Shown one piece after another: positions 3,470-4,440 of a stretch of DNA of 32,213 nucleotides. The notes under the pieces are model-generated. The model saw only the letters and a program-made list of their open reading frames with translations. It did not search any database and was not told where the DNA came from. The stretch is from IMG/VR virus record IMGVR_UViG_2541047852_000002, one strand, 5' to 3'. Each line of letters starts with the position of its first letter. Position 1 is the stretch's first letter. The DNA comes from a virus. Its lineage: Duplodnaviria; Heunggongvirae; Uroviricota; Caudoviricetes. The translations under genes were made by a program, and so were the position numbers.

Positions 3470-3539
3470 TCACATTTTGAGGATATTTAACGTCTATGCT
3501 TTAATGATTTTATTCATTGTTTTATAATCGCGAAGAATA

Positions 3540-3791
3540 ATGATGAACTTGGCAAAGGATATGATTATGCGTATTAAACCTCAAGATTTTAAGTTTGATG
3601 TGTTGACTGTTGCTGGTTACGCTAACCCTAAAGCTAAAACACATTTCGCACCTTCTGCTTCTGGATTTAATTTTAAATGGGAGTGGGAAGGGAAAATTTA
3701 TGAGCTTCATATCGAGCAAGAAAAATTACAGTACCCTGATTTTATTCTTGAACGACTTTTTGATGCCGCAATTGAGATGGCTAAAAAATGA
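3540..3791 (+). CDS. hypothetical protein (AT-rich moron)
   Basis: ORF in markedly AT-rich DNA after the spanins; start uncertain (ATGs at 3540, 3561, 3567). Confidence 0.45.
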   Translation: MMNLAKDMIMRIKPQDFKFDVLTVAGYANPKAKTHFAPSASGFNFKWEWEGKIYELHIEQEKLQYPDFILERLFDAAIEMAKK

Positions 3792-3897
3792 CAAAAATCA
3801 CCGGATGGGGTTTTTGTTTATAGATATTCACACATAGCCCTTGCATCTAGAACAGAAAATCTTGTCATGGCGCGGGGCTATGTTAGCAAAAATTTAT

Positions 3898-4338
3898 TTA
3901 ATAGGATATTTTGTTTGCAGATTTAAGCTCTTTAAGAGTAGCGTCAAGTATATGTAAAAATAGAGAAGTGTCGCCATACTCATAATGTGGCTCGGATTTG
4001 TATTCTCTAATATAAATAAATCCACCTTTGGATAAAAATAAATCAATCAGCTCGTTGTTATTTTCATCGGTTGGGTCAATGGCAGCAAACTTCAATACAG
4101 GAGCTTCATCAATGACTAGCAGTGTTTCTTTGAAAATAAGTTCTAGTTCATATGTTGAAAGTTTGAGGGTTAACCTATTTTTTTTATCTTTATTGAAAAT
4201 TATTGTGTCGCCAAGAAAATCGTATTCAGAGCTTGAGTCAATAATGTTATTCTTAAGTTTGAGAGATATTGCATCTAAAGCCTTTTTATGCTCTGCGCAC
4301 TTAACAACTTTATGAACATCTAAACTGGGGATACTCAT
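3898..4338 (-). CDS. hypothetical protein (AT-rich moron), 146 aa
   Basis: SD AGGTGG 7 nt upstream of ATG at 4338 (track ORF extends to 4401); low GC; convergent with 3540-3791. Confidence 0.55.
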   Translation of the reverse strand: MSIPSLDVHKVVKCAEHKKALDAISLKLKNNIIDSSSEYDFLGDTIIFNKDKKNRLTLKLSTYELELIFKETLLVIDEAPVLKFAAIDPTDENNNELIDLFLSKGGFIYIREYKSEPHYEYGDTSLFLHILDATLKELKSANKISY

Positions 4339-4440
4339 AATACAACCACCTATGTAAGAACTAAAGAGCATTGAGTCTATGTGATTAATATCAAGACCCA
4401 ATTAAATTTTTTAAATTATTAGAGTTAGATCCCACTTTAA

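What the first reader, a model, noticed from the sequence alone, without database searches (positions are those of the whole stretch)
3470..4440. AT-rich two-gene moron block between the spanin genes and the HNH/terminase module
About 1 kb of visibly lower-GC DNA carries two convergent ORFs of 83 and 146 aa, the latter with a strong AGGTGG SD, and no recognisable motifs. In lambda this position holds bor; here the cargo is different and uncharacterised, so it is a candidate for superinfection exclusion, anti-defence or host-interaction function.
Basis: partly seen in the sequence, partly recalled or inferred. Interest (0 to 1): 0.5.

Follow-up and report, generated by a model that had tools for sequence, protein, structure and literature searches.

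The report
Two unrelated orphan prophage cargo genes
The AT-rich kilobase between the lysis and DNA-packaging genes of this E. coli prophage is real inserted cargo, but it holds two separately acquired single genes of unknown function rather than one two-gene system, and the larger gene is switched off by a one-base slip in many pathogenic strains.

Summary
Window 3470-4440 is the lowest-GC 971-bp stretch of the window (0.33 against a mean of 0.51). It carries two convergent, conserved ORFs, and the minus-strand ORF has an AGGTGG Shine-Dalgarno 7 nt before its ATG.

The host element is an SfV/e14-like prophage, 99.98% identical to E. coli ATCC 11775 and also present in S88, UTI89 and APEC O1. 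In phage SfV the spanin and HNH genes lie 26 bp apart, so the block is added DNA.

The two genes are not a unit:
- ORF A is most likely 74 aa (start at 3567), not 83 aa. In Enterobacter and Pantoea prophages it recurs about 100 nt after the lysis genes, on the late strand, without ORF B.
- ORF B (146 aa) recurs in at least seven Enterobacteriaceae prophage lineages, down to 27% identity. It always sits after the lysis cassette, antisense to the late operon, at low GC, and without ORF A.

ORF B is frameshifted at an A8 tract in roughly 40% of E. coli carriers.

Function was not tested. My best guess is that ORF B is a lysogen-expressed binding protein involved in phage exclusion or host modulation. 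The finding is of modest interest.

The parts
3470..4440 (.). Low-GC inserted block (cargo slot) between the last lysis gene (Rz/Rz1, ending at 3469) and the HNH endonuclease gene (starting at 4441)
   Evidence: GC 0.330, the minimum of all 971-bp windows. SfV has the spanin and HNH genes 26 bp apart. Sister prophages hold Rha, DUF2441 or a 229-aa unknown protein in this slot.
3523..3528 (+). Perfect -10 hexamer TATAAT upstream of ORF A, with a weak -35 TTTAAT at 3500-3505 (17-nt spacer). Candidate promoter for ORF A.
   Evidence: Read from the sequence. TATAAT is conserved at the same relative place in the Enterobacter-type loci L003 and L025. It was not called by the consensus scan because the -35 is weak. 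Function is inferred only.
3567..3791 (+). ORF A: 74-aa soluble protein (pI 6.7, no Cys, no TM segment), identical to WP_001220676.1. The 83-aa reading starts at 3540.
   Evidence: Homologues of 64-78% identity in Enterobacter asburiae, Pantoea latae and metagenomes are all 74 aa. dN/dS is 0.05-0.07. It always lies about 100 nt after the lysis cassette on the late strand. No family hit. AF2 model is low confidence, pLDDT 64.
3790..3818 (.). A-tract/hairpin/U-tract directly after the ORF A stop codon. A weak, bidirectional terminator-like element shared by the two convergent genes.
   Evidence: -10.8 kcal/mol, z -2.2. ORF A homologues have a strong GCCGCC..GGCGG-U6 terminator at the same place: -15.6 kcal/mol, z -4.1.
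3832..3883 (.). Long imperfect hairpin between the two stop codons
   Evidence: -21.7 kcal/mol on the + strand (z -4.0) and -19.4 on the - strand (z -2.7). No Rfam match.
3898..4338 (-). ORF B: 146-aa soluble acidic protein (pI 5.4), identical to WP_000026993.1
4178..4185 (-). T8 (A8 on the coding strand, ORF B codons 51-54). Indel hotspot that switches ORF B off.
   Evidence: UTI89 differs from the window across the whole block only by one T fewer here. 16 of 40 evenly sampled carrier genomes have the 440-nt form, and in 15 of those 16 no gene is annotated there. A second lineage is broken at the same tract, and P0002 has an in-frame loss there.
4346..4351 (-). Shine-Dalgarno AGGTGG, 7 nt upstream of the ORF B ATG
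   Evidence: Read from the sequence. AGGAGA or AAGAGG sits at the same place in the 62%-identical homologues.

Best explanation
SHOWN: the block is a variable cargo slot at the lysis/packaging junction of an SfV/e14-like lambdoid prophage integrated next to ssrA. It has been filled by two independently acquired single-gene morons.

ORF B (146 aa):
- It is a bor-position moron. It lies just after the last lysis gene, is read against the late operon, keeps a low GC content, and has its own Shine-Dalgarno and a downstream hairpin.
- INFERRED: because it is antisense to the repressed late operon, it is transcribed from its own promoter in the lysogen.
- It makes a soluble, acidic helix/antiparallel-sheet/helix sandwich with no conserved catalytic residues. 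It therefore most likely acts by binding a partner protein.
- The most likely role is interference with superinfecting phages or another lysogenic-conversion effect. It can be switched off by slippage in an A8 tract.

ORF A (74 aa):
- It is a separate forward-oriented moron with a perfect -10 hexamer and the remnant of a terminator.
- INFERRED: it can be expressed both on its own and by read-through during late transcription.
- It may act as a small late or constitutive binding protein, comparable in layout to the Pseudomonas moron Tab.

My confidence in the anatomy (two independent morons in a hotspot) is about 0.9. My confidence in the exclusion or conversion role of ORF B is about 0.3. The figure given in the confidence field is for the whole statement.
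For: Insertion and hotspot:
- SfV has an empty site here. Other cargo occupies the same slot in sister prophages.
- The block has the lowest GC in the window.

Independence of the two genes:
- ORF A homologues (L003, L005, L025, L026) have no ORF B.
- ORF B homologues (L002, L006-L010, L014-L019, L027, L029-L032, L039) have no ORF A.

ORF B position and orientation:
- Both are invariant across different lysis genes (GH24, GH19 and GH108 endolysins). They are also invariant across packaging modules: HNH with P27-type TerS, Terminase_4, Hendrixvirinae TerS, and lambda Nu1/GpA.
- Homologues have GC 0.30-0.35 in loci of 0.49-0.54.

Selection: purifying selection acts on both genes.

Transcription signals:
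- Hairpins or terminators follow each ORF B homologue and ORF A homologue.
- TATAAT is conserved upstream of ORF A.

ORF B protein:
- Conserved residues are mostly hydrophobic. The only Cys (C14) is not conserved.
- The confident AF2 model has only generic alpha/beta-sandwich neighbours: Med14, CyaY/frataxin, E2/UEV, and T3SS chaperones.
- One good viral structural match exists, to an uncharacterised 151-aa Burkholderia phage Mana protein. This is probably the low-GC, terminator-followed gene CPT_Mana_015, itself in a moron position.

Precedents for small orphan morons giving phage exclusion: Tab of JBD26 (PMC10884400). That paper also lists HK97 gp15 in its references as a moron-encoded superinfection exclusion protein.
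Against: - No experimental or homology evidence for any function.
- There is no PADLOC hit beyond a 13-bit partial match in 3 of 14 family members.
- No sigma-70-like promoter for ORF B stands out above chance. Expression in the lysogen is therefore assumed from orientation only.
- ORF B is frameshifted in roughly 40% of E. coli carriers. Both genes are broken in one IMG/VR lineage. Neither gene is therefore required, and selection in E. coli may be weak.
- The identification of CPT_Mana_015 as the BFVD hit rests only on its length. hhalign sees no sequence similarity.
Confidence: 0.45

Rival explanations
1. ORF A is not lysogenic-conversion cargo. It is an accessory gene of the lysis cassette or late operon, for example a modulator of lysis timing or of a late host function. 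It travels with the spanin genes and is expressed by Q-antiterminated late transcription.
For: - In all four lineage types it sits 97-120 nt after the last lysis gene on the late strand, whatever the terminase type downstream.
- Purifying selection is very strong, dN/dS 0.05-0.07.
- Its GC in other genera (0.41-0.43) is less deviant than that of ORF B.
- It is 100% or 99.6% identical in every E. coli carrier listed, including those where ORF B is frameshifted.
Against: - It is absent from SfV, SfIV and most sister prophages, which have complete lysis cassettes.
- It has its own -10 hexamer and a terminator directly after the stop codon, which is the classic moron layout.
- It has no TM segment, signal peptide or Cys, unlike holin, antiholin or spanin partners (read from the sequence).
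- It has no PHROG lysis family hit.
Confidence: 0.25
2. ORF B is lysogen-expressed cargo whose target is the host or a host defence system rather than incoming phage. One example would be a catalytically dead E2/UEV-like or frataxin-like decoy or adaptor that modulates a host pathway, or a counter-defence factor protecting the prophage on induction.
For: - No catalytic Cys is conserved.
- The carriers listed are mostly ExPEC/APEC-type strains: S88, UTI89, APEC O1, and O2:K1 isolates.
Against: - Counter-defence genes are usually in early operons rather than antisense to late genes (general knowledge).
- The gene is inactivated in UTI89 and APEC O1.
Confidence: 0.2
3. The two genes form one functional two-gene system, such as toxin-antitoxin or defence plus self-immunity. 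This is what 'two-gene block' implies.
For: - They are adjacent, convergent and share a bidirectional terminator-like element in this lineage.
- They co-occur at 89-100% identity in 102 E. coli genomes and four IMG/VR contigs.
- Tab-type morons are known to need a phage-encoded counter-protein (PMC10884400).
Against: - Outside this single prophage lineage they never co-occur.
- In L006-L009 no extra gene lies between the ORF B homologue and the lysis cassette (120-aa and 159-aa genes, the latter an endolysin).
- ORF A stays intact where ORF B is frameshifted.
- They are convergent, not co-transcribed.
Confidence: 0.05
4. The block is decaying, functionally neutral hitch-hiking DNA. The ORFs persist only because the prophage lineage is young and clonal.
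For: - Within E. coli the block is nearly clonal: 105 of 106 records are 99% identical or more.
- ORF B is frameshifted in about 40% of carriers. Both genes are disrupted in L020/L024.
- Truncated variants are frequent in the protein database.
- In the window's strain an IS element cuts the Q gene, so the prophage itself is degenerating.
Against: - Both families persist as intact ORFs at 27-78% identity in other genera, with dN/dS well below 1.
- Position, orientation, Shine-Dalgarno and terminators are conserved. Neutral DNA would not keep these features.
Confidence: 0.1

Closest known systems
Lambda bor (lipoprotein moron downstream of Rz, read against the late operon, expressed in the lysogen; description from general knowledge)
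   Same: ORF B occupies the same place (after the last lysis gene, before the packaging genes) and has the same antisense orientation in all lineages read. Like bor, it is dispensable cargo of deviant composition.
   Different: No sequence relationship: no Pfam family, including any Bor model, hits at E up to 1. ORF B has no signal peptide or lipobox and is predicted to be a cytoplasmic acidic protein. ORF A has no Cys at all.
Morons as defined for HK97/HK022 (Juhala et al. 2000, cited in PMC10884400), including the HK97 gp15 superinfection-exclusion moron
   Same: Extra gene(s) between genes that are adjacent in a relative (SfV). Atypical GC. A terminator after the gene. A candidate promoter for ORF A.
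   Different: gp15 is a membrane protein in the tail gene region (from memory). These two proteins are soluble, lie at the lysis/packaging junction, and share no homology with it. Promoters were not demonstrated.
Tab, the 83-residue moron of Pseudomonas phage JBD26 (PMC10884400)
   Same: A small orphan protein with no recognisable domain, encoded as a moron inside or next to the late operon near the terminase genes. This is a layout precedent for ORF A, and a functional precedent for small binding proteins that block a rival phage.
   Different: Different host, and a different position (between terS and terL). The function of ORF A and ORF B is untested.
Burkholderia phage Mana uncharacterised 151-aa protein (BFVD A0A873WDE3; probably CPT_Mana_015)
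   Same: The only confident structural neighbour of ORF B: Foldseek E 3e-6, TM 0.65-0.67 over the full length. The only 151-aa CDS of Mana is a low-GC gene followed by an annotated terminator, lying between tail genes. That is also a moron layout.
   Different: 17% identity, and no profile similarity by hhalign. P2-like phage, different genomic slot, forward orientation. Function is likewise unknown. The identity of the BFVD entry with CPT_Mana_015 is inferred from length only.

Membership tests
Moron (independently transcribed extra gene in a temperate phage) | Present between two genes that are adjacent in a related phage | tested here: met
   In SfV the Rz/Rz1 annotation ends at 36639 and the HNH gene starts at 36666. 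SfIV has a 291-bp gap with no gene. The window has 971 bp with two genes.
Moron (independently transcribed extra gene in a temperate phage) | Base composition different from the surrounding phage genes | tested here: met
   GC 0.33 against 0.48-0.58 in the flanks. GC3 0.25-0.29 against 0.44-0.68. The same holds for ORF B homologues in eight other loci.
Moron (independently transcribed extra gene in a temperate phage) | Own promoter | tested here: inconclusive
   ORF A has a perfect TATAAT at 3523-3528, conserved in L003 and L025, but a weak -35. ORF B has only a conserved TTGATA block, and no site scores above chance in the scan: 4 found against 4.0 expected.
Moron (independently transcribed extra gene in a temperate phage) | Own terminator | tested here: met
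   ORF A homologues have a strong GC hairpin plus U6 directly after the stop (z -4.1). The window copy is weaker (-10.8 kcal/mol, z -2.2). ORF B homologues in L006, L010 and L015 have hairpins after the stop (z -7.1, -3.1, -3.5).
Moron (independently transcribed extra gene in a temperate phage) | Expressed from the repressed prophage | not testable with these tools
   Needs RNA-seq or 5'-RACE of a lysogen. No paper mentions WP_000026993 or WP_001220676.
Lambda Bor family | Match to the Bor profile, plus a lipoprotein signal peptide with a lipobox Cys | tested here: not met
   No Pfam hit at E up to 1 for either protein. ORF A contains no Cys. The single Cys of ORF B (C14) lies in a charged helix and is not conserved.
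Known anti-phage defence systems (PADLOC-DB 2.0) | Significant match to a defence-protein profile | tested here: not met
   ORF A has no hit. ORF B has only PDC-M24A at E 0.016, 13 bits, covering 31 residues, seen in 3 of 14 family members.
Two-gene toxin-antitoxin or defence/immunity pair | The two genes co-occur across unrelated elements | tested here: not met
   They co-occur only in the window's own prophage lineage and occur separately in all other loci.
E2/UBC-like or frataxin-like fold families | Strong structural match and the family's functional residues (E2 catalytic Cys/HPN motif; frataxin acidic ridge) | tested here: not met

The most novel reading that the evidence does not exclude
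ORF B founds a new family of single-protein, prophage-encoded phage-exclusion or abortive-infection factors. The family is specific to the lysis/packaging junction of enterobacterial lambdoid prophages and acts by binding a structural or packaging protein of rival phages. Its activity is turned on and off in ExPEC populations by slippage of an A8 tract. ORF A would be an unrelated second small effector in the same hotspot.
Probability: 0.2. Interest if true: 0.55.

Novelty: new member of a known kind. Interest (0 to 1): 0.3.

Why it matters
If ORF B or ORF A turns out to block other phages or alter host behaviour, it would add small, domain-less effectors to the prophage arsenal of clinically important ExPEC/APEC lineages such as S88, UTI89 and APEC O1. 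It would also mark the lysis/packaging junction of SfV/e14-like prophages as a place to mine for such genes.

The natural on/off alleles at the A8 tract provide ready-made isogenic controls: S88 and ATCC 11775 carry the intact allele, while UTI89 and APEC O1 carry the frameshift.

As it stands, this is a well-delimited but functionally uncharacterised example of a very common phenomenon.

Tried and rejected
- Profile searches of both proteins against Pfam, PHROGs, NCBIfam and PADLOC gave nothing above threshold. Scanning all 14 ORF B family members gave only sub-threshold YueH (21 bits against a cutoff of 27) and DUF1062 (17 against 23) hits in the Citrobacter/Lelliottia branch. I rejected these as evidence.
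- PDB sequence-profile searches gave nothing.
- tblastn of both proteins against 50,697 phage genomes gave no match.
- An exhaustive phmmer search of ORF B against 1.84 billion representatives gave 7 hits, all from the same small family.
- Genome-representative scans found no ORF B in 185,579 species representatives, and ORF A only in Pantoea latae.
- The afdb50 structure library was unavailable.
- hhalign of the ORF B family against Mana CPT_Mana_015 showed no similarity.
- The Rfam scan of 3300-4950 gave no hit.
- A literature search for the two RefSeq accessions returned nothing. A Gifsy-prophage defence paper that surfaced (PMC12724215) concerns a different protein (GiPD474, WP_000368620.1), which its discussion compares with Avs2/STAND NTPases.
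- The TTG-initiated 167-aa reading of ORF B was rejected. The N-terminal extension is not conserved as protein in homologues, whereas the ATG with its Shine-Dalgarno is.

Full report
**What the window is**

From position 1269 onward the window is 99.98% identical to the chromosome of E. coli ATCC 11775. It covers the late half of an SfV/e14-like prophage. The genes run in this order: Q antiterminator, holin, GH24 endolysin, Rz/Rz1, the block in question, HNH endonuclease, P27-type TerS, TerL, portal, HK97-type head, and a Mu-like contractile tail. The prophage is integrated next to ssrA. The block at 3400-4500 is found complete in 102 of 5,426 complete E. coli genomes, including S88, UTI89, APEC O1, NU14 and UM146.

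**Checking the observation**

The composition claim is correct.
- The interval 3470-4440 has GC 0.330, the lowest of any 971-bp window in the 32 kb (mean 0.511, sd 0.064).
- GC3 is 0.25 for ORF A and 0.29 for ORF B, against 0.44-0.68 in the neighbouring lysis and packaging genes.

- The minus-strand ORF (4338 to 3898, 146 aa) has AGGTGG 7 nt before its ATG.
- The plus-strand ORF is 83 aa from its first ATG (3540).

The real start of the plus-strand ORF is most likely ATG 3567, giving 74 aa.
- Every intact homologue from another genus is 74 aa and starts at that Met. PGAP also annotates 74 aa.
- AAGGA sits 7 nt upstream of that ATG.
- The candidate -10 hexamer at 3523-3528 would leave no leader for the ATG at 3540.

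Both are genuine genes. Against homologues in other prophages, dN/dS is 0.05-0.07 for ORF A and 0.22-0.34 for ORF B.

**It is an insertion into a variable slot**

In phage SfV the spanin and HNH genes are 26 bp apart. In SfIV they are 291 bp apart with no gene between them. Sister E. coli prophages share the same Rz and HNH flanks at 90-93% identity. In this slot they carry instead a Rha-family gene, a DUF2441 gene, or a 229-aa unknown protein (phrog_9267). The junction is therefore a cargo hotspot, and the block meets the positional and compositional criteria of a moron.

**The two genes are independent**

ORF A homologues (64-78% identity) occur in Enterobacter asburiae, Pantoea latae and IMG/VR contigs.
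- They always lie 97-120 nt after the last lysis gene on the late strand.
- The terminases downstream are unrelated (Terminase_2/6N, Terminase_3), and ORF B is never present.

ORF B homologues (27-64% identity) occur in E. coli, Salmonella, Citrobacter koseri, Atlantibacter hermannii and Lelliottia.
- In every locus read they lie immediately after the lysis cassette and before the packaging genes, on the strand opposite to the late operon.
- Their GC is 0.30-0.35 in loci of 0.49-0.54, and ORF A is never present.
- The flanking modules vary. Endolysins are GH24, GH19 or GH108. Packaging is HNH with Terminase_4, Hendrixvirinae TerS, or lambda-type Nu1/GpA. The constant feature is therefore the slot and the orientation, not a partner gene.

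The two genes co-occur only in the window's own prophage lineage. 'Two-gene block' is thus a coincidence of two insertions, not a system.

**Transcription signals**

ORF A:
- TATAAT at 3523-3528 is conserved in the Enterobacter-type loci, but the -35 is weak.
- Homologues carry a strong intrinsic terminator directly after the stop codon (-15.6 kcal/mol, z -4.1). The window has a weaker A-tract/hairpin/U-tract at 3790-3818 (-10.8 kcal/mol, z -2.2), which could act in both directions.

Between the genes, a longer hairpin at 3832-3883 (-21.7 kcal/mol, z -4.0) lies between the two stop codons.

ORF B:
- Homologues each have a hairpin after their stop codon.
- The generic promoter scan found no more sites than chance. 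I could not define an ORF B promoter from the conserved TTGATA-containing upstream block. Expression of ORF B in the lysogen is therefore inferred from orientation only.

**What the proteins are**

Neither protein matches any profile above threshold in Pfam, PHROGs, NCBIfam, PADLOC or the PDB sequences. Neither is found by tblastn in 50,697 deposited phage genomes.

Both families are very small.
- ORF B has 7 hits among 1.84 billion cluster representatives, and 19 clusters in 5.8 billion sequences when searched with a profile.
- ORF A has 10 clusters, several of them truncated.

ORF A (8.7 kDa, pI 6.7, no Cys, no hydrophobic segment) gives a low-confidence helix / three-strand sheet / helix model (pLDDT 64). 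Its neighbours are unspecific.

ORF B (16.7 kDa, pI 5.4) gives a confident model (pLDDT 83.5, pTM 0.75).
- The model has a 30-residue N-terminal helix, a six-stranded antiparallel sheet and a C-terminal helix.
- Invariant positions in a 14-sequence alignment are mostly hydrophobic core residues, plus D7, K18, K29 and E112. The only Cys is not conserved. Nothing suggests catalysis, so a binding or adaptor role is the economical reading.
- The single good viral structural match (Foldseek E 3e-6, TM 0.67) is an uncharacterised 151-aa protein of the P2-like Burkholderia phage Mana. The only 151-aa CDS in that genome is CPT_Mana_015. It is a low-GC gene (0.51-0.55 against 0.66-0.72) followed by an annotated terminator, lying between tail genes. 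If that identification is right, the fold recurs as moron cargo in an unrelated temperate phage. hhalign sees no sequence similarity.

**An on/off tract in ORF B**

Across the whole 971-bp block, UTI89 differs from the window by a single base: one T fewer in the T8 run at 4178-4185, which is A8 in codons 51-54. This frameshifts ORF B.
- In an even sampling of the 106 E. coli carriers, 16 of 40 have the 440-nt form, among them UTI89, NU14, UM146 and APEC O1. In 15 of those 16 no gene is annotated there; APEC O1 carries a 'hypothetical protein' call.
- A second lineage of 89-94% identity is broken at the same tract. One variant has lost exactly one Lys codon there.

The tract is thus a recurrent indel site. 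I cannot decide whether this is phase variation or simple decay. In the listed carriers ORF A is 100% or 99.6% identical, including those with the frameshifted ORF B. It has a premature stop in the divergent IMG/VR lineage, where ORF B is also broken.

**Interpretation**

Shown:
- There are two independent orphan morons in a cargo hotspot.
- ORF B is a family tied to the bor-like position and antisense orientation.
- ORF A is a family tied to the position just after the spanins on the late strand.

Inferred:
- ORF B is expressed from the prophage and acts by protein binding. The most plausible role is against superinfecting phages or in another lysogenic-conversion effect. Precedents are small domain-less morons such as Tab of JBD26 and HK97 gp15 (PMC10884400 and its references). 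I put about 0.3 on that role.
- For ORF A, the moron layout competes with a lysis or late-operon accessory role. The accessory role is favoured by its strict linkage to the spanins and its very low dN/dS.
- A joint two-gene system is essentially excluded by the distribution.
- Neutral decay is unlikely, given conservation across genera, but it is not excluded for the E. coli copies.

**Verdict**

The 'two-gene' framing is wrong. The function remains open.

This is a new member of a known kind: uncharacterised cargo at a known type of phage hotspot. Interest is modest. It is raised slightly by three things: the strict positional conservation of ORF B through 70% sequence divergence, its poorly matched fold, and the natural on/off alleles in well-studied ExPEC strains.

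Noticed in passing
window 1-1268 and 28704-29971 (insertion extends to about 30013): There are two inverted, 100% identical copies of an IS3-family element with 108-aa and 296-aa ORFs. It is about 1310 bp and IS629-like (from memory). ATCC 11775 lacks both copies. The first copy cuts the Q antiterminator gene, leaving only its C-terminal 107 codons (1271-1594). The late operon of this copy of the prophage probably cannot be activated. The two copies bracket the whole late region (1269-28703).
   Followed up: partly
window 30727-32051: A further 1.3-kb insertion relative to ATCC 11775, with 301-aa and 136-aa ORFs on the minus strand (IS2-like from memory). It lies near the ssrA end of the prophage.
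   Followed up: no
window 1600-2200 (ORF 1780-2115, + strand): A second low-GC island (GC 0.31-0.37) lies between the Q gene and the holin. It carries a 111-aa, strongly acidic ORF that matches only phrog_13663 (unknown function). This is another moron-type slot. A 111-aa gene sits at the same place in L029.
   Followed up: partly
window 4178-4185: T8/A8 homopolymer inside ORF B. One base fewer in UTI89, NU14, UM146, APEC O1 and others frameshifts the gene. Independent breaks and an in-frame codon loss occur at the same tract in other lineages. This could be phase variation or decay.
   Followed up: partly
window about 24276-26165 (- strand) and about 27217-27990 (+ strand): Low-GC cargo at the right end of the prophage, next to ssrA. 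By the ATCC 11775 annotation it includes a 629-aa DUF262-domain protein (a domain I recall from GmrSD-type restriction enzymes), a LEM-3-like GIY-YIG protein, and a decayed DinI-like gene. These are further candidate defence or accessory genes.
   Followed up: no
L003 about 7930-7990 and L025 about 5930-5990: In the Enterobacter-type ORF A loci, the conserved TATAAT is flanked by an inverted repeat TGTGAA...TTCACA about 35 bp apart. This could be an operator. It is absent from the window copy.
   Followed up: no
L010 4465-5922, L027 4467-5924, L029 4467-5924: In the Citrobacter/Lelliottia/E. coli branch of the ORF B family (27-33% identity), a conserved 485-aa late-strand gene lies directly upstream of ORF B and divergent from it. 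For the L010 copy its only hit is a weak glycosyltransferase-2 match (E 7e-4, below threshold). Its relation to ORF B is unknown.
   Followed up: no
L036 (Burkholderia phage Mana) 9269-9724: CPT_Mana_015 is the only 151-aa CDS of Mana. It is a low-GC gene followed by an annotated terminator, lying between a tail completion gene and the gpV-like tail spike gene (from memory, the place where P2 has orf30). It is probably the structural match of ORF B in BFVD.
   Followed up: partly
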